This document shows, in pieces, positions 2,386-37,965 of a stretch of 41,989 nt of DNA (position 1 is its first letter; the number at the start of each line of letters is the position of its first letter). A model generated the notes under the pieces. That model saw nothing but the letters and a program-made list of their open reading frames with translations. It had not been told where the DNA came from and made no database searches. The DNA is taken from the IMG/VR virus record IMGVR_UViG_2778261105_000011; one strand, written 5' to 3'. The translations under genes were made by a program, and so were the position numbers. Source of the DNA: a virus. Taxonomy: Duplodnaviria; Heunggongvirae; Uroviricota; Caudoviricetes.

Positions 2386-3000
2386 TCAAAGTGGAGGATC
2401 TGGTAGCGGCATCCAGTGTGACGGCTCACATACCCCTTCAACACCATTCATGTAAAAGAATTGAAATAACCCTTTACCTTTGTGAAACCCTACCATCTGC
2501 TCTTTTGTGTCTGAGCAATAAACCAAAACATCTTCTTCGTTTGGCATTCGCTCACTACAGCTTATCCAACCATCCGGAGTTACCGGATAGTTGCCGGGTT
2601 CTTTAATGTGCAAGCGAGGCTCACCATCTTTTGGCTCAGGCCACTGGCGCTCCATGTTGATCTTCAATTTATCTTCCATAGCAGCGGTAATTTCAGCATC
2701 GCTGATGCCAGCACGGCGCTGTGCATCCCACAACAGAAACTGCATATCAGCCCACTCGCTAAGATCGTCTGGTTCGGCTGCGGCTTCCAGTGCCTCTTTT
2801 GAGAGATGTTTCAGCTGACCAATGGGGCCAACGCAGCCAAATGTGGAGTCAGACCATTTGGCATGCTCGTGGCGAATCTGTTCGCGTTCCAGTGATGCCA
2901 GTGCAATTCGTGCCAGTTCCATTTGTTCGCCACGGGTAAGCCCGTTATCAAGCGGATTTTTAATGAATAATTCGATACGTTCTTTGGTTATAGCGCTCAT
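2386..3000 (-). CDS. Hypothetical early protein, C-terminal DUF551-like region
   Basis: Start ATG at 3000 preceded by AGGAGAG; C-terminal W..C.ERMP...VLVY...HWMPLP pattern typical of a phage early-protein domain. Track ORF 2386..3030. Confidence 0.45.
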   Translation of the reverse strand: MSAITKERIELFIKNPLDNGLTRGEQMELARIALASLEREQIRHEHAKWSDSTFGCVGPIGQLKHLSKEALEAAAEPDDLSEWADMQFLLWDAQRRAGISDAEITAAMEDKLKINMERQWPEPKDGEPRLHIKEPGNYPVTPDGWISCSERMPNEEDVLVYCSDTKEQMVGFHKGKGLFQFFYMNGVEGVCEPSHWMPLPDPPL

Positions 3001-3001
3001 A

Positions 3002-3838
3002 TCACTCTCCTTTGATGCGAATGCCAGCAAGCCAGTTTCTTATGCCGATATATTCAGCGTTCCTGAAACCGCTTTTTACATATATAAATGGCAAGCGAAG
3101 ATTGTGACCATTGGCTGCCAGGTAGTCTTTACAACCCTGTTCGGTGAAACAGCAGGTAACGAATTCATCAATATCTTTCACAGCAACGCGCCGCCATTTT
3201 TCTGGTGGCTCTCGAAAGTTTTCGTGAAGTAGTTCGAGACGACGACTTTGGCGTTTATTGGCTTCATTGCCATCTTCATCAACCCAGACAATCCGGTCAT
3301 AGTCATAATCAGCATCAACAACGATTTCGCGCTTTTGATACACACAAAACATGGGATCTGACGTTATTCGATTGTCCTGTGTCCGAATATTTTCACCGAT
3401 GATGCCAAACGAATCTGGTGCAGATTTTGTCTGCATCTCTCCGATACGTTCAGCCATCGCAGCACACTCTTCAAAGTTGCTTAATGCTTTTCGCTCCCAT
3501 TCAGCGCATTGTTTTTCCAGTTCTGCAATGCGCTTACCTCCATCCGCGATTACTCCATCGTAATACTCACGCTGCTCGTTGAGTTTTGATTTTGCTGCTT
3601 CAAGCTCAACACGCAGCTTCCCTACCGTTAGCGCAATTTCCTCGTTCTCCTGGTCGCGGGATTTGATGTATTGCTGGTTTCTTTCCCGTTCATCCAGCAG
3701 CGCCAGCACAATGTGTGGCGTTATCAGGGACTCAAATTCGGCAACAGCTTGCTCGCCTCGCTTGTAATTCTTAATCCCACCTAAATCTTTCGCGTTCTGC
3801 GCCGCCTCACGCAGTGCCTGATAGTTTATTTTGGTCAT
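3002..3838 (-). CDS. Hypothetical early protein with central coiled coil (Ead/Ea22-like)
   Basis: 278 aa ORF in the leftward operon, abutting neighbours with 1-2 bp spacing; family name is a guess from memory. Confidence 0.4.
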   Translation of the reverse strand: MTKINYQALREAAQNAKDLGGIKNYKRGEQAVAEFESLITPHIVLALLDERERNQQYIKSRDQENEEIALTVGKLRVELEAAKSKLNEQREYYDGVIADGGKRIAELEKQCAEWERKALSNFEECAAMAERIGEMQTKSAPDSFGIIGENIRTQDNRITSDPMFCVYQKREIVVDADYDYDRIVWVDEDGNEANKRQSRRLELLHENFREPPEKWRRVAVKDIDEFVTCCFTEQGCKDYLAANGHNLRLPFIYVKSGFRNAEYIGIRNWLAGIRIKGE

Positions 3839-3839
3839 A

Positions 3840-4139
3840 TCACATCACCCTGAAGCCGTTGCATTTACGTAAAAAATCGCAGATATAGCCCTTCATTTTT
3901 TCATGCCAATCTCGATCATTCCCATTGCACCAACCATCAGGTGGAGTCCAGTTTTCTATCAGAGCAGCCATTTTCTTTGCTTTCGCCGGAGTAGCTGTTG
4001 CGGTATCGCAGTAATGACGAGTGTCAACCAACGCATCCATACCATCGATATCAAGTACGCAAAACCATGTGTGATTCGGAATTCCTACAGGTGGTATTTG
4101 TTGCCCACGTCGACGTTTATCAATAAGATATACACTCAC
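3840..4139 (-). CDS. Hypothetical early protein
   Basis: Likely GTG start at 4139 preceded by AAGGAGG; 4 bp overlap with the stop of the upstream gene. Track ORF 3840..4160. Confidence 0.35.
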
Positions 4140-4303
4140 TGCTTGCCTCCTTTGCGCCACATCGCATTCAGATATTTGTTTTGATTTACTGACGGAAAAG
4201 AATTTCTCTTAAGCAATTCCTCTCTCGATGGCATTGGCTTTACGCGTTGGCGAATAATCATTTCTGCCGGAAGAATGCCGGGATTGTATGCAAGTCCTCT
4301 CAT
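4136..4303 (-). CDS. Hypothetical small protein
   Basis: ATG at 4303 preceded by GAGGAA; track ORF 4136..4336 is the extended form. Confidence 0.3.
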
Positions 4304-4313
4304 GGTAAATTCC

Positions 4314-4610
4314 TCAGTCATTACTGATAGCGCCATAGCGTGAGCGGTAATTACGCAGGCGCGGGTCGATATATTCAGGGAAGTGGGTATATATGGCTTT
4401 GCGGAATGGTCGGATTGATGTTTCGTTTATTCGGTCTTTTTCCTGTTTTTCTGCGAGTTGTATATCGCGTCGGTACTTCCGTTCTGCTTTTGTTTCTGGT
4501 GGCAGAGCAAGAAACGCGTCGAGATTATTCTTGATATTTTCCAGCACCTCCGATACGGAATTGCCGGAACAGCGGCGCGCGTCATCCGCACCATACAGAG
4601 GCGCTGGCAT
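4314..4610 (-). CDS. Hypothetical early protein (98 aa), in the position occupied by Abc-type genes in P22
   Basis: ATG at 4610 with AAGGA Shine-Dalgarno; operon position next to erf/SSB-like gene. Function not recognised. Confidence 0.4.
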
Positions 4611-33122: not shown

Positions 33123-34960
33123 TGAAAGTAACTGCAAACGGTAAGACATTTACCTTCCCTGATGGTACGAGCACGGAAGATATTGGATCTGCCATTGATG
33201 AGTATTTTGCTGGACAGTCTGTTCAGCAACAAACTGTCAGCCAGGATAGCAATGAACCAGCACGTGAAGAACCATCATTGATGCAACAAGCTGGCGATTG
33301 GCTCACTGGTGGTCAAAGTGCAGGGCAAATTGCAGAACAGGCTGGTCGTGGTCTGGTAAACATACCATTTGACGTATTGCAGGGTGGCGCAAGTCTGATT
33401 AATGCAATCAGTCAGGGGCTTGGTGGACCCAAGGTTTTGGATGATGTTTATCGTCCAGTAGACAGACCGACAGACCCCTACGCGCAAGCCGGTGAAACAA
33501 TTGGTGGGTATTTAGTTCCAGGAGTTGGAACGGCAGGAAGCATGGCTATTGGCTCACTGGCAGAGGCTGCAAATCAGAAAGGCGATTTCGCACAAAATGC
33601 AGCAAGAAACGCCGGAGTTAACCTTGCCGCTCAGGGGGTTCTTTCCGCAGCAGCAAAGGGAATAGGGCGTGGAATAACGGCTATAAAAGGTGATATTGCG
33701 CCAGAAGTGGCGAAGAAAATTGCCACATCAGAATCGATGGGCGTGACACCAATGACATCTGATGTTATCCCGCCGAAAAATGCTTTCACTCGCGGCCTTA
33801 CTCAGGATGCCGAGGGGGCTTTGCTCGGGACAGGCTCAAAGAGAGCGGAGCAATATGCAACGCGTAGTAAGCTGGTAAGCAATTATTTTGACCGTTTTGG
33901 TGAGTACAACCCTGATGATGTGGTGAAATCTCTGACCACCACGTTAAGGGGGCGGAAGGATGCCGCTGGCGCTGTTATCAATGACGTCACCAATAAAATG
34001 GGTAATGCCGCAGTTGATACCACAAATACCATGAATGCTCTGAATACAGCGATCGCAAGACAGGAACGGCTTGGGACTTCAGCCAATCAAAGCCTGCTTA
34101 CATCCTTGCGTAACCTACGTGAAGAATTAGCAAACCCTGCAACTGATTTGGATGTTACGTTTGATCTCTTGCGTCAGCACAGAACAGCATTTAGATCTAA
34201 TGTTCAGGGAGATTCTATGGTCTTCCCCAACCAGGCAAAAGCAGCTACCAATATGGTAGAGAATGCAATGTCAAAAGACCTTCGTAACGCAGTTGCAAAA
34301 AACCTCGGTGCGTCAGACGCAGCAAAATACCTTAAAGCAAATTCCGATTATGCAAACGTTTATAATAAGGTGCTTAATAAAAACATTGCTAACAAGCTCA
34401 ACAAGGCAAGCAGTGAAGCCAGTCCTGAACTTATAAATACCGTTGTATTAAGCAGAAAGCCATCTGACGTGAAACGAATCTGGAGCGCATTGGATGATAA
34501 AGGGAAAGATGCTATGCGTGCAGCTTACGTCAGCAAAATAGCGGAAAAGGCCGGTGACTCTCCAGCCAAGTTCATCACTGAAGTTAATAAGCTTAAATCT
34601 CAGTCAGGCGGTGAAATTTACAACACTATTTTTTCTGGAAAGCACATGAAAGAGCTTGATGCTCTTCATGAAGTTCTACAGCAAACAGCAAGGTCAGACA
34701 CCGCAAATGTAGTAACTCAGACGGGGCAATCACAAGCCAACAGGATAAGGACGATTGGCGCAACTGCGACTCTTGGAGTATCAATGGGGCTTGAGGCTGG
34801 CTTTGGTGCAATGATGCGTTTGTATGAGTCCAAAGCCGCAAGGAATATGCTTCTTCGTTTGGCAAACACCAAAGCAGGAACACCAGCCTATGAAAGAGCG
34901 CTAAATAACGCTGCGAATGCCATCAGACCGCTGTTTGCTACTGAGGCAACACAGCAGTAA
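33119..34960 (+). CDS. Ejection protein, P22 gp16 type
   Basis: 613 aa, size and order; ATGA overlap with the gp20-type gene. Confidence 0.7.
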
Positions 34961-34984: not shown

Positions 34985-35374
34985 CTAACATTTTCTTTTT
35001 ACTTTTCCAACAAAAGCTTTGGTTGAATCCATATTTCCATAACCGGAAATGGTTTTTGACATTAAAACTGTTCCAGTAGGATGTATTACCCATGAGTCGA
35101 TAACGCGTTGAGTTTCGCCATTCGCGCCGATTCCTATGATGGAGTTTTTAGACAATGCTTTGTAAGCCATGCCGCCCGCATCTGTCCCAGAATATGTGAT
35201 GCTGGCATCTTCACCGCTTGTCTTAATGATGAATGTTCCACTAAAACCATCTTCTTCCGGATGGAAATTATTTCGTTCTGAATAGCTTATTCCGCGCATA
35301 TCTCCAACGACCCAGCACTCTGCTGTAGCCCCAAAAGATATGAATAAGAACATAGCAGCAAGAAATTGCTTCAC
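34985..35374 (-). CDS. Secreted (periplasmic) protein of unknown function, moron in the sieA position
   Basis: GTG start at 35374 preceded by TAAGGAGG; N-terminal signal peptide KQFLAAMFLFISFGATA; track ORF 34985..35449 is the extended form. Confidence 0.5.
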   Translation of the reverse strand: MKQFLAAMFLFISFGATAECWVVGDMRGISYSERNNFHPEEDGFSGTFIIKTSGEDASITYSGTDAGGMAYKALSKNSIIGIGANGETQRVIDSWVIHPTGTVLMSKTISGYGNMDSTKAFVGKVKRKC

Positions 35375-35438
35375 ACCAACCTCCTTAGTTTTGAGCAGGA
35401 TACCAGATGATAATGTGTAGTTGGAGTAGCGCGGTTGT

Positions 35439-35530
35439 AATGCAAGCATTTTGTTTTAGTTTTATGCTTGCTTGTATGTGTGCACAGTGTATATAATGCA
35501 AGCATAAATCACAACAAAGGTGCTTGCATT
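35439..35530. promoter_or_regulatory. Divergent promoter region with four copies of an 8-10 bp motif TGCAAGCA / TGCTTGCA in alternating orientation (35441, 35466, 35498, 35522)
   Basis: Direct reading; the last copy overlaps the ribosome-binding region of the downstream gene. Confidence 0.45.
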
Positions 35531-36499
35531 ATGACTGAAAAGAAAAGTGGCGAAGGGAAAGCTAAGGGCGGGATCGCTCGCGCAAAGTCGCTGACTAAAG
35601 AGCAGCGTTCTGAAATAGCAAAGAAAGCAGCTGCTGCAAGATGGAAAAGTAAGATTCTCAGGGCAACTCATCGTGGTAACTTTTTAGATGATTTTGGCAT
35701 TGATGCTGAATGTTATGTACTGGATGACGAGTCGAAAACTGTCGTTGTTACGAAAACTGGATTATCTCAGTTGCTAGGGATTGGTGAACATGCCAGGGAT
35801 TTAGATCAACTGCTTGGCGCTCAGTATATGAGCAAATACCGAGATCTAGAATTGCAGCGAAAAATGGAAAATCCCTATAAATTTCAACTTACTTCGAAGT
35901 CTAAAACCGTTCATCAAGCGTTAGGTTATGACATTACAGCAATTGTTGATATTGGTAGGGCACTAATAGAAGCCAAAGATAATGACGATCTACCACAATC
36001 ACGGTTAAAGGCAGCCGCCGCAGCACAGAGACTTATTAATGCCTCCGCTAAGGCGGGAATTAAGGGGGTTGCGTATGCGCTTGCTGGTTATCGTCCAGAA
36101 GTTCAGGCTGTCATTGACGAGTTCAAAGCGTTTGTTCGTGAAGAGGCTCGTCAATATGAAAAGGAATTTCCAGATGAGCTATACGAGGAGTGGTATCGAC
36201 TGTACGGCCTGAATAGGCCAGAGAAAGGACGGCCTATTCGTTTTGGGCAGCTAACCAACATGCAGATATACACCCCGCTAGCAAAGAGTAAAGGTAAAAT
36301 CCTTGAACAGATTCGAGCCAGCCGAGACGAGAACGGAAAACAATCTGATAAGTTGCATCTGTTCCTTTCTGAAATTGGTGTCAAGGCTTTGCGTCAGCAT
36401 ATCGGTAAGCTTCTTGGGGTCGCAGCGATGAGTGAGACAAGAGAAGAATACGAAAAAGGAATAGAAAAGGTTTTTGGAAGAATGAAACCAGAAATCTAA
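35531..36499 (+). CDS. Hypothetical protein (322 aa) with basic N-terminal segment, in the sieA position of the immI region
   Basis: ATG at 35531 (track ORF 35468..36499 extended); N-terminus ...KGGIARAKSLTKEQRSEIAKKAAAARW...; remainder unrecognised. Confidence 0.5.
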   Translation: MTEKKSGEGKAKGGIARAKSLTKEQRSEIAKKAAAARWKSKILRATHRGNFLDDFGIDAECYVLDDESKTVVVTKTGLSQLLGIGEHARDLDQLLGAQYMSKYRDLELQRKMENPYKFQLTSKSKTVHQALGYDITAIVDIGRALIEAKDNDDLPQSRLKAAAAAQRLINASAKAGIKGVAYALAGYRPEVQAVIDEFKAFVREEARQYEKEFPDELYEEWYRLYGLNRPEKGRPIRFGQLTNMQIYTPLAKSKGKILEQIRASRDENGKQSDKLHLFLSEIGVKALRQHIGKLLGVAAMSETREEYEKGIEKVFGRMKPEI

Positions 36500-36505
36500 T
36501 TATGA

Positions 36506-36532
36506 AACCCACCGTCAGGTGGGTTTTTTGTA
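36506..36532. terminator. Bidirectional rho-independent terminator (AACCCACC-GUCA-GGUGGGUU flanked by U/A runs)
   Basis: Read directly; the mnt stop codon lies in the loop. Confidence 0.7.
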
Positions 36533-36766
36533 CAAATCCTTCAGCGTATCAAACACCATCTTCTTAACAAGTTCGGACTGCTCATCAGCGAGTCGTTCTG
36601 CATCGTCGCGATATCCAGTCACAGGCGATGGTTTTGATAGAGCATCTTGGACGATTTGTAACAACTCGGAGTTCATTGATCTCCCATTCGCCTCCGCCCT
36701 GAATTTTAATTTCTCCCTTACTTCCATAGGCATACGGAAGTTAAAGTGCGGATCATCTCTAGCCAT
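36515..36766 (-). CDS. mnt: Mnt repressor (ribbon-helix-helix)
   Basis: 83 aa translation MARDDPHFNFRMPMEVREKLKFRAEANGRSMNSELLQIVQDAL... essentially identical to remembered P22 Mnt. Confidence 0.9.
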   Translation of the reverse strand: MARDDPHFNFRMPMEVREKLKFRAEANGRSMNSELLQIVQDALSKPSPVTGYRDDAERLADEQSELVKKMVFDTLKDLYKKPT

Positions 36767-36788
36767 GCCATCACTCCAAGTTAGTGTA

Positions 36789-36840
36789 TTGACATGATAG
36801 AAGCACTCTACTATATTCTCAATAGGTCCACGGTGGACCT
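36789..36840 (+). promoter_or_regulatory. Pant promoter with Arc operator (36794-36814) and 17 bp palindromic Mnt operator AGGTCCACGGTGGACCT (36824-36840)
   Basis: TTGACA at 36789-36794 and TATATT at 36812-36817 with 17 bp spacing; operator sequences match the P22 immI region. Confidence 0.85.
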
Positions 36841-36856
36841 ATATTGTGAGGTGAAT

Positions 36857-37018
36857 ATGAAAGGAATGAGCAAGATGCCGCAGTTCAATTTGCGGTGGCC
36901 TAAAGAAGTATTGGATTTGGTACGCAAGGTGGCGGAAGAGAATGGTCGGTCTGTTAACTCTGAGATTTATCAGAGAGTAATGGAAAGCTTTAAGAAGGAA
37001 GGGCGCATTGGCGCGTAA
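36857..37018 (+). CDS. arc: Arc repressor (ribbon-helix-helix)
   Basis: 53 aa [53 protein letters not shown] matches P22 Arc; track ORF 36794..37018 is the extended form. Confidence 0.9.
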
Positions 37019-37022
37019 AGTT

Positions 37023-37054
37023 GAAGCCCCAACTGCGGGAACAGTCAGGGCTTC
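37023..37054. terminator. arc-ant intergenic hairpin (GAAGCCC ... GGGCUUC), likely terminator for arc and for an antisense sar-like RNA
   Basis: Read directly; position corresponds to the bidirectional terminator of the P22 sar/arc region. Confidence 0.45.
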
Positions 37055-37086
37055 GGTATCAACAAATCGGATTAGGAAATATTGAC

Positions 37087-37965
37087 ATGAAAAGTATAGC
37101 AAAGGCACAAAACGATTTCACCATCTTCAAATTCGGCGACAGTGAAATCCGCGTCATCAACAAATGCGGTGAGCCGTGGTTTGTAGCAAAAGATGTTTGT
37201 GATGCTTTAACCCTGACTAACTCACGCAAGGCGCTTACTGCACTTGATGACGATGAAAAGGGAGTAACTTTAAGTTACACCCTTGGTGGTGAGCAGAATC
37301 TAAGCATTGTTAGCGAATCAGGTATGTATACATTGGTTCTGCGCTGCCGCGATGCTGTCAATAAAGGTTCGGTCCCGCACAAATTCCGCAAGTGGGTAAC
37401 AGCAGAAGTTCTACCTTCAATTCGCAAACATGGCGAGTATGTGAAAGGCAAGAAAACCACTGTTGAGGAAAGAACGGCGCTACGCGATGCAGTAAACATG
37501 CTGGTAGGAAAGAAAGGACTTCGCTATGACGATGCATACAATATGGTTCATCAGCGTTTTGGTATTGACAGCATTGATGAACTTTCAATTGAACAAATCC
37601 CGCTGGCCGTAGAGTACATCCACAGGGTAGTGCTTGAAGGCGAGTTTATCGGCAAACAAGAGAAGAAAGCAAACGAGCTTTCTGCAAAAGAAGCAAACAG
37701 CCTTGTATGGCTATGGGATTATGCTAACCGTTCACAGGCATTATTCTGCGAACTGTATCCGGCATTAAAACAAATTCAATCGAACTATTCCGGCAGATGC
37801 TACGACTACGGTCATGAATTCTCGTATGTTATCGGAATGGCGAGAGACGTTTTAATCAATCACACACGAGATGTTGATATCAATGAGCCAGACGGACCAA
37901 CGAATCTTTCCGCATGGATGAGACTTAAGAATAAAGAATTACCTCCTTCAGTACATAACTACTGA
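37087..37965 (+). CDS. ant: Antirepressor Ant (Bro-N / Ant-type)
   Basis: ...[15 protein letters not shown]...LDDDEKG...[23 protein letters not shown]...[18 protein letters not shown]... matches the P22 Ant N-terminal domain; start taken at ATG 37087. Confidence 0.8.

What the first reader, a model, noticed from the sequence alone, without database searches (positions are those of the whole stretch)
34985..36499. Two-gene cassette replacing sieA in the immI region, with a repeated operator-like motif in the divergent promoter
In P22 the interval between the ejection protein gp16 gene and mnt carries the superinfection-exclusion gene sieA. Here it instead carries a minus-strand gene for a small secreted protein (signal peptide, 34985-35374) and a plus-strand gene for a 322 aa protein with a basic, alanine-rich N-terminus (35531-36499). 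The divergent promoter region between them contains four copies of TGCAAGCA/TGCTTGCA in alternating orientation, suggesting dedicated regulation by a DNA-binding protein. The position and moron-like structure suggest a superinfection-exclusion or anti-phage function.
Basis: partly seen in the sequence, partly recalled or inferred. Interest (0 to 1): 0.65.

Follow-up and report, generated by a model that had tools for sequence, protein, structure and literature searches.

The report
Self-regulated mobile P63C gene in prophage
The repeated motif is real: it is a four-site control region that travels with the 322-aa P63C gene through many bacterial phyla, prophage accessory slots and an IS1-type jumping element, while the small secreted-protein gene next to it is a separate passenger.

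Summary
Both ORFs and the four TGCAAGCA/TGCTTGCA sites are at the stated coordinates (one site is 7/8).

The "two-gene cassette" reading does not hold. The sites belong only to the 322-aa gene, a P63C-domain protein (PF10546).

The same F-R-F-R array lies upstream of P63C homologues in about 60 of 80 bacterial species from many phyla and in 70 of 80 viral contigs. Spacing is the same, and so is the relation to a sigma-70 promoter, the ribosome-binding site and the ATG. A 29%-identical paralogue downstream of cI in phage ST104 has it too.

In at least 22 species the array and gene are cargo of an IS1-family transposon with 8-bp target duplications.

Arm substitutions are not compensated, and the predicted transcription start lies past site 3. 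The sites therefore look like DNA operators, not an RNA hairpin. The likely binder is the protein's own N-terminal basic helix: homologues without the helix lack the sites.

The small gene encodes a periplasmic 8-stranded beta-barrel. It uses the same leader as sieA and occurs independently, in sister prophages in an mnt–Rap1a operon.

The parts
34985..35374 (-). Gene for a 129-aa secreted protein: cleavable signal peptide, then an 8-stranded beta-barrel with conserved Cys20 and Cys129. It is an independent accessory gene in the sieA slot.
35365..35427 (-). Conserved leftward leader (SD AAGGAGG 35380-86 and upstream). Different leftward genes of this slot share it; it acts as a recombination joint.
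   Evidence: 92-98% identical in Emek, epsilon34 and E. coli phages E212, EC.P3 and phiv205-1. The same leader precedes sieA in L086 and another leftward ORF in L090.
35441..35448 (+). Operator site F1 (TGCAAGCA).
   Evidence: At least 92% conserved per position in 51 arrays. In the IS copies its reverse complement supplies the -35 (TTGCAt) of the transposase promoter.
35465..35472 (+). Operator site R2 (TGCTTGCT, 7/8). It overlaps the -35 hexamer TTGCTT (35468-35473).
   Evidence: The -35 reads TTGCA[T/A] in 40 of 51 arrays and TTGCTT in 6.
35492..35497 (+). -10 hexamer TATAAT. Its last T is the first base of site F3. The spacer to the -35 is 18 bp here, 17 bp in most arrays.
   Evidence: TAnnnT sits at this fixed position in 37 of 51 arrays. 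The simple consensus scan did not list it, because the -35 matches only 3 of 6.
35497..35504 (+). Operator site F3 (TGCAAGCA), covering the -10/+1 region. The predicted transcription start is about 35503-35505.
   Evidence: The start site is inferred from promoter geometry and has not been mapped.
35516..35520 (+). Shine-Dalgarno AAAGG of the P63C gene, in the F3-R4 spacer.
   Evidence: An SD-like triplet lies in the last 9 nt of this spacer in 43 of 51 arrays. In the reverse complement of the F1-R2 spacer it occurs in only 6 of 51.
35521..35528 (+). Operator site R4 (TGCTTGCA), between the SD and the ATG.
   Evidence: The start codon overlaps or directly follows R4 in 44 of 51 arrays.
35531..36499 (+). 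Gene for the 322-aa P63C-domain protein. Regions: basic helix aa 11-39 (35561-35647); conserved beta-rich domain aa 43-135; variable helical region aa 71-170; P63C domain aa 199-286 (36125-36388).
   Evidence: Pfam PF10546, E 6.8e-14. PHROG 2384, E 1.7e-104. 1682 homologues. Alignment A1. AF2 pLDDT 73. Conservation profile.
36505..36526 (.). Hairpin AAACCCACC-GTCA-GGTGGGTTT followed by a T run. It acts as a terminator between the convergent P63C gene and mnt, and the mnt stop codon lies in its loop. Homology to P22 resumes here.
   Evidence: Read from the sequence. P22 matches start at query position 1607, which is window 36506. The terminator scan did not list it.

Best explanation
Bases 35438-36499 are one self-contained, mobile gene module: a P63C-family gene with its own sigma-70 promoter set inside four 8-bp operator sites.

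Layout (shown):
- R2 overlaps the -35.
- F3 overlaps the -10/+1.
- R4 lies between the ribosome-binding site and the ATG.
- F1 lies 24 bp upstream of R2.

Mechanism (inferred):
- The product binds these sites through its N-terminal basic helix (aa 11-39). That shuts off its own promoter and keeps expression low and constant in the lysogen.
- The module looks like an escaped copy of the cargo of an IS1-family transposon. There the same array lies between the transposase gene and the P63C gene and also overlaps the transposase promoter.
- In prophages the module behaves as an accessory gene ("moron") that lands in many accessory slots.

Effector role (inferred, weak): the protein body has a conserved beta-rich domain, a hypervariable middle region and the P63C domain. 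It most likely acts on DNA, or on proteins of competing mobile elements or incoming phages. Nothing tested here shows this.

The minus-strand gene is a separate accessory gene. It encodes a periplasmic, disulfide-closed 8-stranded beta-barrel in the sieA position, plausibly an envelope immunity or inhibitor protein.
For: Family:
- The protein is a P63C family member.

The array travels with the gene:
- 52 of 82 sequences (80 species loci plus L001 and the window) have the strict F-N14-19-R-N18-28-F-N13-19-R array. About 10 more have the sites with altered spacing.
- 70 of 80 IMG/VR loci have the full array, and the other 10 keep F3/R4.
- ST104 orf23 is only 29% identical and sits downstream of cI, yet has the full array.

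Promoter geometry and site conservation:
- The -35 TTGCA lies in R2, TAnnnT ends on F3, the SD precedes R4, and the ATG follows R4.
- Each site is at least 90% conserved per position, while the spacers are not.
- The sites occur nowhere else in 411 kb of flanks.

Specificity:
- In viral contigs, 62 of 120 pattern matches abut a P63C gene, with a 15-16 bp spacer. The other 58 have a flat spacer distribution typical of chance.

DNA rather than RNA:
- Arm substitutions are almost never compensated: 1 against 26 for F3/R4.
- The F1/R2 pair lies upstream of the promoter.

The helix as reading head:
- The 7 homologues whose N-terminus lacks the helix have no sites.
- An Acidobacteria variant helix goes with a variant inverted repeat, TATACTTGC...GCAAGTATA.
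- The 933W paralogue has an altered helix and different palindromes.
- The same helix forms the C-terminus of the small gene that accompanies P63C in the IS.

IS cargo:
- The upstream divergent gene is an IS1-type transposase.
- The units end in the inverted repeats GGTAGTGnnTCAGTTTGAA.
- 22 of 23 units with both ends show perfect 8-bp target duplications.

Accessory-gene behaviour:
- The module sits in the gene 16-mnt, cI-24, nin, Q-holin, tail-island and prophage-end slots.

Independence of the small gene:
-.
Against: - No binding, transcription-start or expression data exist. The binder is inferred from co-inheritance only.
- The helix/site correlation is confounded by phylogeny and by context. 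Helix-less homologues may simply sit in other genomic settings.
- In the window the -35 is weak (TTGCTT, 18-bp spacer), and the consensus scan did not call the promoter.
- F3 and R4 form a stable hairpin if transcribed (-15.8 kcal/mol, z -4.7).
- The AF2 model is only moderate (pLDDT 73; the helix region 53-67). It has no informative structural neighbour.
- No defence-system model matches.
- The direction of transfer, IS to phage or phage to IS, is not established.
Confidence: 0.6

Rival explanations
1. The F3/R4 inverted repeat works at the RNA level. It forms a 5'-UTR hairpin that holds the SD in its loop and the ATG at its foot, and so controls translation or mRNA stability.
For: There is a perfect 12-13 bp inverted repeat, 35493-35504 with 35521-35532. 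The predicted hairpin is -15.8 kcal/mol with z -4.7. The SD lies in the loop and the ATG is adjacent.
Against: - The conserved -10 ends on the first base of F3, so the transcript should start at about the end of F3 and lack the 5' arm.
- An equally conserved F1/R2 pair lies upstream of the promoter.
- Substitutions in one arm are not compensated in the other: 1 against 26.
- No Rfam family matches beyond generic long-hairpin noise.
Confidence: 0.1
2. One reading: the two divergent genes form one cassette, co-regulated from a shared operator region and acting together in superinfection exclusion.
For: The genes are adjacent and divergent in the sieA slot. The region 35438-35531 is an imperfect 94-bp dyad. 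In the IS copies the same array does overlap a leftward (transposase) promoter.
Against: - The genes occur separately in phages and genomes.
- The motif follows P63C in every context and never the barrel gene.
- The leftward leader is shared with sieA and other genes.
- In the window, the position equivalent to the IS transposase promoter's -10 reads AACTAC (compared).
Confidence: 0.08
3. The sites are bound by something other than the P63C protein. Candidates are a host factor or, in the IS, the transposase or the small helix protein. Under this view P63C is not autoregulated.
For: In the IS, three proteins could bind. The small convergent protein carries the same helix, and the transposase has an HTH. 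R2 partly coincides with a -35-like TTGCA.
Against: The array is retained, with all four sites, in prophages that lack both the transposase and the small protein (window; L086-L090; ST104). P63C is the only common trans factor there. No universal host regulator spanning Acidobacteriota to Enterobacterales is known (general knowledge).
Confidence: 0.12
4. In the phage, the P63C gene is a hitch-hiking relic of an IS regulator, comparable in role to InsA of IS1. It has no benefit for phage or lysogen.
For: It is cargo of an IS1-family element, with the array overlapping the transposase promoter. The window keeps a remnant of the transposase-side sequence, ACCGCGCTAC. No defence model matches.
Against: - Intact, diversified alleles (54-100% identity) persist in the same P22-like slot and in at least five other prophage slots, always without a transposase.
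- The protein has 320 aa and a conserved C-terminal domain, far more than a repressor needs.
- The mosaic, hypervariable middle region suggests selection on specificity.
Confidence: 0.15

Closest known systems
Pfam P63C domain family (PF10546; named after phage Mx8 p63) / PHROG 2384
   Same: The 322-aa protein matches PF10546 above the gathering score and matches PHROG 2384 over its full length. NCBI already annotates identical E. coli proteins as 'P63C domain-containing protein'.
   Different: The family has no assigned function. Searches of the held literature found no functional work on it. I found no description of the conserved four-site operator, the N-terminal helix link or the IS1 cargo status.
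P22 SieA (inner-membrane superinfection-exclusion protein; PF26849)
   Same: Same genome slot between gene 16 and mnt. The small gene shares sieA's SD, GTG start and leader, and would be expressed leftward in the same way (PMC10883804).
   Different: Neither protein matches SieA. The small protein is a secreted beta-barrel, not a multi-pass membrane protein. P63C coexists with sieA in L086.
IS1-family insertion sequences and their InsA repressor
   Same: Homologues of this gene are carried in elements with an IS1-type DDE transposase, GGnnnTG-type terminal repeats and 8-bp target duplications. A DNA-binding product placed to control the transposase promoter recalls InsA; the InsA comparison is from my own knowledge.
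   Different: The window has no transposase and no terminal repeats. The putative regulator is a 320-aa multidomain protein. Its sites are internal, not in the terminal repeats. I could not check whether ISfinder lists these elements.
BstA of Salmonella prophage BTP1 (from my own knowledge, not checked here)
   Same: BstA is a prophage-expressed, roughly 300-aa DNA-binding protein of the KilA-N/Bro domain network. It sits in the slot downstream of the repressor, and a cis DNA element in its own locus modulates it. A P63C paralogue occupies that same slot in ST104.
   Different: No sequence or PADLOC match. No abortive-infection phenotype is known for P63C. Here the cis element is a promoter-operator array.
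Arc/Mnt operators of the adjacent immI region
   Same: Both are small sets of short symmetric operators that overlap promoters and give tight autoregulation in a P22-like prophage (mnt, arc and ant lie at 36515-37965).
   Different: The sequences and the proteins are unrelated: ribbon-helix-helix for Arc and Mnt, a basic helix here. The P63C array is portable and is found far outside P22-like phages.
Periplasmic immunity or inhibitor proteins (e.g. Rap1a, PF18602) and small lipocalin/avidin-like barrels
   Same: The small protein is periplasmic and is closed by a disulfide between its N- and C-termini. In sister prophages it is co-operonic with a Rap1a homologue downstream of mnt.

Membership tests
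P63C domain family (PF10546) | Match to the Pfam HMM above the gathering score | tested here: met
   52.7 bits against a cut-off of 26.1, covering aa 199-286. All 40 aligned homologues match.
PHROG 2384 | Full-length profile match | tested here: met
   E 1.7e-104, covering aa 6-321. The family's function is unknown.
SieA superinfection exclusion (PF26849) | Sequence match to SieA; multi-pass inner-membrane protein | tested here: not met
   No Pfam hit for either protein. A genuine SieA gene is recognised in the same slot of L086. The small protein is a signal peptide plus a soluble barrel.
Known anti-phage defence systems (PADLOC-DB v2) | HMM match to any component | tested here: not met
   No family at E up to 1 for either protein.
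IS1-family transposable element (complete copy) | Adjacent IS1-type transposase gene | tested here: not met
   No transposase match in the window. It is present in about 42 of 80 homologous loci.
IS1-family transposable element (complete copy) | Terminal inverted repeats GGTAGTGnnTCAGTTTGAA with an 8-bp target duplication | tested here: not met
   No match in the window with up to 3 mismatches. 22 of 23 IS copies elsewhere have them.
Cargo module of that IS (array + P63C gene) | F-R-F-R array in the same register with the promoter, SD and ATG, followed by a P63C gene | tested here: met
   The window array is 16/24/16 against the consensus 15-16/23-24/15-16.
Negatively autoregulated operator-promoter | Repeated specific sites overlapping the -35, -10/+1 and translation start of the regulator's own gene | tested here: met
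   Sequence geometry is conserved in 51 arrays.
Negatively autoregulated operator-promoter | The gene product binds the sites and represses transcription | not testable with these tools
   Only correlation is available: helix-less homologues lack the sites, and variant helices go with variant sites.
Structured cis-regulatory RNA (Rfam) | Match to a curated covariance model, or covariation that supports pairing | tested here: not met
   Only sub-threshold miRNA-precursor hits. Substitutions are not compensated.
Two-gene (toxin-antitoxin-like or defence) cassette | The two genes are inherited together | tested here: not met
   They occur separately in phages. Only 11 of 394 matching E. coli genomes carry both. 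The barrel gene sits in an mnt-Rap1a operon elsewhere.
Bro-N / Ant-N DNA-binding domain (for aa 43-135) | Sequence or fold match | tested here: inconclusive
   No Pfam Bro-N hit in any of the 40 members. Only weak Foldseek hits to Ant-N and Bro-N proteins: E 0.07-0.2, TM about 0.4-0.5 on the target.
Rap1a-type T6SS immunity protein (for the small protein) | Match to PF18602 | tested here: not met
   No Pfam hit. The only link is neighbourhood with a Rap1a gene in sister prophages.

The most novel reading that the evidence does not exclude
The short basic helix (KGG-ARA-x2-L-x2-E-x-R-x2-IA-x-KAA-x-ARW) is an undescribed sequence-specific DNA-reading module for ATGCAAGCAT-type sites. With it, P63C proteins form a self-repressing, highly mobile gene unit that shuttles between IS1-type transposons and the accessory slots of many prophage types. 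There it acts as an exclusion or competition factor against other mobile elements, with the hypervariable middle region setting target specificity.
Probability: 0.25. Interest if true: 0.75.

Novelty: new variant of a known kind. Interest (0 to 1): 0.6.

Why it matters
P63C is a large protein family with no known function. This search found 1682 relatives, in phages, prophages and chromosomes of many phyla.

The work here gives the family a concrete handle:
- a defined promoter-operator array;
- a candidate DNA-reading helix;
- membership in an active IS1-type transposon with 8-bp target duplications;
- repeated capture into classic prophage accessory slots next to known exclusion genes (sieA, and the slot downstream of cI).

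Three questions become directly testable with simple experiments:
- Does the protein autoregulate?
- What does it do for a lysogen?
- Why does a transposon carry it?

The result also shows that the gene 16-mnt interval of P22-like prophages is a two-sided swap site. Envelope-acting proteins (SieA, a periplasmic barrel, a Rap1a homologue) and cytoplasmic modules are exchanged there independently.

Tried and rejected
- PADLOC and NCBIfam gave nothing for either protein.
- Sequence search of the PDB with both profiles gave nothing useful.
- Rfam at E up to 10 returned only long-hairpin noise.
- Literature searches on P63C, PF10546, the motif itself, ISPa14 and ISMhu11 found nothing on function. 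The paper that defined the domain could not be fetched.
- I looked for IS ends in the window and found none.
- I considered a long 94-nt hairpin with F1/R4 and R2/F3 pairing. Spacer complementarity is only marginally above control (6.9 against 6.2 matches), and substitutions are not compensated, so I rejected it.
- I looked for a convincing leftward sigma-70 promoter for the small gene between 35375 and 35480 and found none.
- GC content of the cassette is only slightly below its flanks, 40-43% against 46-50%, so it is not diagnostic.
- Contexts of distant barrel homologues were mostly on contigs too short to help.
Full report
**Setting.** The window is a P22-like (Lederbergvirus) prophage or phage. 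A gp16-type ejection gene ends at 34960. Downstream lie mnt (36515-36766, minus strand), arc (36857-37018), ant (37021-37965) and a tailspike gene. The identical 1.66-kb stretch occurs in E. coli chromosomes such as ECONIH6 and O111:H8 TW05614, where NCBI calls the genes 'hypothetical protein' and 'P63C domain-containing protein'.

**Checking the observation.** Both ORFs are as described.
- The minus-strand gene (34985-35374) starts at GTG behind AAGGAGG. It encodes a 129-aa protein with a typical signal peptide ending in ATA|E.
- The plus-strand gene (35531-36499) encodes 322 aa with a basic, Ala-rich N-terminus.
- The four motif copies lie at 35441-48 (TGCAAGCA), 35465-72 (TGCTTGCT, 7/8), 35497-504 (TGCAAGCA) and 35521-28 (TGCTTGCA).
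- Three of the four exact occurrences of this 8-mer in the 42-kb window fall within 88 bp.

**What the 322-aa protein is.**
- It matches Pfam P63C (PF10546, aa 199-286) and, over its full length, PHROG 2384, which has no known function.
- It has no PADLOC or NCBIfam match and no PDB relative by sequence.
- The AF2 model is moderate (pLDDT 73). It shows an N-terminal helix, a beta-rich domain and a helical C-terminal half.
- The family is large, with 1682 hits, and strikingly conserved: 42-52% identity between Enterobacterales, Acidobacteriota, Myxococcota, Verrucomicrobiota and Firmicutes.

**The motif travels with this gene.** I fetched 80 homologous loci, one per species, and looked upstream.
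- The same sites recur in the same order (F-R-F-R) with the same spacing. 52 of 82 sequences pass a strict pattern, and about 10 more have the sites with altered spacing.
- Each site is at least 90% conserved per position, while the spacers are free.
- Outside the arrays the 8-mer is at background: 16 in 411 kb.
- In IMG/VR, 70 of 80 P63C loci have the full array. The other 10 sit at a prophage end next to a tRNA gene and keep F3/R4.
Of those 120 matches, 62 abut a P63C gene, with the spacer peaking at 15-16. The other 58 have a flat spacer distribution, as expected for chance.
- ST104 orf23 is only 29% identical and lies directly downstream of cI, yet carries the full array. Its annotated start codon lies inside the operator.

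**Anatomy and likely mechanism.** Across 51 arrays:
- The -35 is TTGCA(T/A), inside R2, in 40 arrays.
- A TAnnnT -10 ends on the first base of F3 in 37 arrays.
- The usual promoter spacer is 17 bp; in the window it is 18 bp (TTGCTT 35468-73, TATAAT 35492-97).
- An SD lies just before R4 in 43 arrays.
- The start codon overlaps or directly follows R4 in 44 arrays.

The sites therefore bracket a sigma-70 promoter and the translation start, which is the layout of a repressor-controlled promoter. Three points argue against an RNA or cruciform role:
- Transcription should start at about the end of F3, so the F3/R4 hairpin (stable if transcribed) would lack its 5' arm.
- The equally conserved F1/R2 pair lies upstream of the promoter.
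- Substitutions in one arm are almost never compensated in the partner: 1 against 26 for F3/R4.

Rfam has no matching family.

**Who binds.** This step is inferred. In prophages the only trans factor that always accompanies the array is the P63C protein itself. Four observations point to its N-terminal helix:
- The helix (GG-ARA-x2-L-x2-E-x-R-x2-IA-x2-AA-x-RW) is among the most conserved parts of the protein.
- The seven homologues whose N-terminus lacks this helix have no sites.
- Acidobacteria variants with an altered helix (…IARAAIQARWEKAGK) carry a variant repeat, TATACTTGC…GCAAGTATA, around their promoter.
- The 933W paralogue has a divergent helix and different palindromes.

These correlations are not corrected for phylogeny.

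**An unexpected origin: cargo of an IS1-family transposon.**
- In about 42 of 80 loci a divergent gene lies upstream of the array. It encodes an IS1-type transposase: weak Pfam DDE_Tnp_IS1 and InsA hits, NCBIfam transpos_IS1 at E 4e-14, and PGAP's name 'IS1 family transposase'.
- In about 30 loci a small convergent gene follows P63C. Its product ends in the same basic helix. This family is very large, has no Pfam model, and is sometimes labelled 'histone H1'.
- The units end in the inverted repeats GGTAGTGnnTCAGTTTGAA. In 22 of the 23 units with both ends, perfect 8-bp target duplications flank them. Unit sizes are 2.25-4.7 kb.
- On the transposase side, the reverse complement of F1 supplies a -35. 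A -10 lies 17 bp beyond it and overlaps a fifth half-site, CTCAAGCATAAT. In the IS the array therefore sits over both divergent promoters.
- The window has no transposase and no terminal repeats. Left of F1 it keeps a remnant of the transposase-side sequence, ACCGCGCTAC.

**Behaviour in prophages.** The array-plus-gene module occupies many accessory slots:
- gene 16-mnt in P22-like prophages, next to a bona fide sieA in Salmonella and as a 54%-identical allele in E. coli;
- downstream of cI in ST104;
- the nin region of 933W;
- between Q and the holin genes;
- a tail-gene island;
- the prophage end.

Among P22-like alleles, the leader, the array and the first ~37 codons are almost identical, while aa 71-170 diverge strongly. 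This mosaic is compatible with selection on specificity.

**The small gene is separate.**
- It is 98% identical in phages Emek and ST-35, which lack P63C. Emek carries a DUF4065 gene pair there instead.
- vB_EcoP-611R6 has P63C with a different leftward gene.
- Only 11 of 394 matching E. coli genomes carry both genes.
- Its SD, GTG start and upstream leader (35365-35427) are the same as those of sieA in L086. It is therefore an alternative occupant of the sieA position.
- It belongs to a family of about 125-135-aa secreted proteins, with invariant Cys20 and nearly invariant (≥90%) Trp95 and Cys129.
- In other P22-like prophages an 87%-identical copy lies in an mnt-Rap1a-barrel operon. A distant relative lies in a row of small same-strand genes.
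- This points to a periplasmic immunity or inhibitor role. That is guilt by association only.

**Function.** Nothing here demonstrates superinfection exclusion or defence. [quoted passage not shown] Lack of sieA is therefore common. I commit to the regulatory architecture with fair confidence, and to an exclusion or competition role for P63C only weakly.

**Verdict.** The gene family and the kind of system (an autoregulated prophage accessory gene) are known. I found no description, in the literature I could search, of three things:
- the deeply conserved operator array;
- its link to the N-terminal helix;
- its carriage by an IS1-family transposon.

Noticed in passing
L012-L084 (e.g. L082 2959-5208; L014; L017): An IS1-family transposable element of 2.25-4.7 kb. 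It has terminal repeats GGTAGTGnnTCAGTTTGAA and perfect 8-bp target duplications. It carries the transposase, the TGCAAGCA array, a P63C gene and often a small gene whose product ends in the same basic helix.
   Followed up: yes
L093-L096, about 3399-4390: In sister P22-like prophages the barrel gene (87% identical) is the third gene of an apparent operon: mnt, then a Rap1a (PF18602, T6SS amidase immunity) homologue, then the barrel. So lysogen-expressed periplasmic proteins are attached to immI.
   Followed up: partly
L002 (phage Emek) 3842-4715: In the same slot, phage Emek carries a DUF4065-domain gene overlapping an orf161. This is another swapped-in two-gene module, possibly toxin-antitoxin-like.
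   Followed up: no
L090 7047-7583: An E. coli P22-like prophage has a 178-aa CLP_protease-family gene between its P63C allele and mnt.
   Followed up: no
L003 (ST104) 2917-2952; also window 35468-35530: Annotated or longest-ORF starts of P63C genes run into the operator array: ST104 orf23 'MQAHFTTKSACIM…', and cluster representative P0001 at 339 aa. The real start is the ATG right after site R4. The translated array gives recurring pseudo-peptides (NASI, CKH, ACM, MLAM), and these first revealed the conservation.
   Followed up: yes
L004 (933W) 3880-3960: The 933W P63C paralogue, in the nin region next to roi, has a divergent N-terminal helix (no RW) and different upstream palindromes (GTGCA…TGCAC, TGCACGT-TACA-ACGTGCA). 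These may be a variant operator.
   Followed up: partly
L022, L025, L029, L031, L036, L038, L042, L049, L071 (upstream of the P63C gene): An Acidobacteria subfamily has an extended N-terminus and an InsA-like zinc-ribbon transposase. It uses a different inverted repeat, TATACTTGC…GCAAGTATA, around a TTGACT promoter.
   Followed up: partly
window 36505-36530: The hairpin between the P63C stop codon and mnt holds the mnt stop codon in its loop. It is the exact point where homology to P22 resumes, so it is both a shared terminator and a recombination joint. The terminator scan did not list it.
   Followed up: partly
L130, L175, L177 (about 2860-3040): Some prophages carry the P63C gene at their very end, next to a tRNA-like sequence. 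The array is cut down to F3/R4 and has a different upstream promoter-like sequence (TTGACT).
   Followed up: partly
L181-L184, 8146-12127: A siphovirus-type prophage holds an accessory island inside its tail-gene region. The island contains P63C, a LexA/CI-like S24 repressor, an ORF6N protein and an NA37 nucleoid-associated protein.
   Followed up: no
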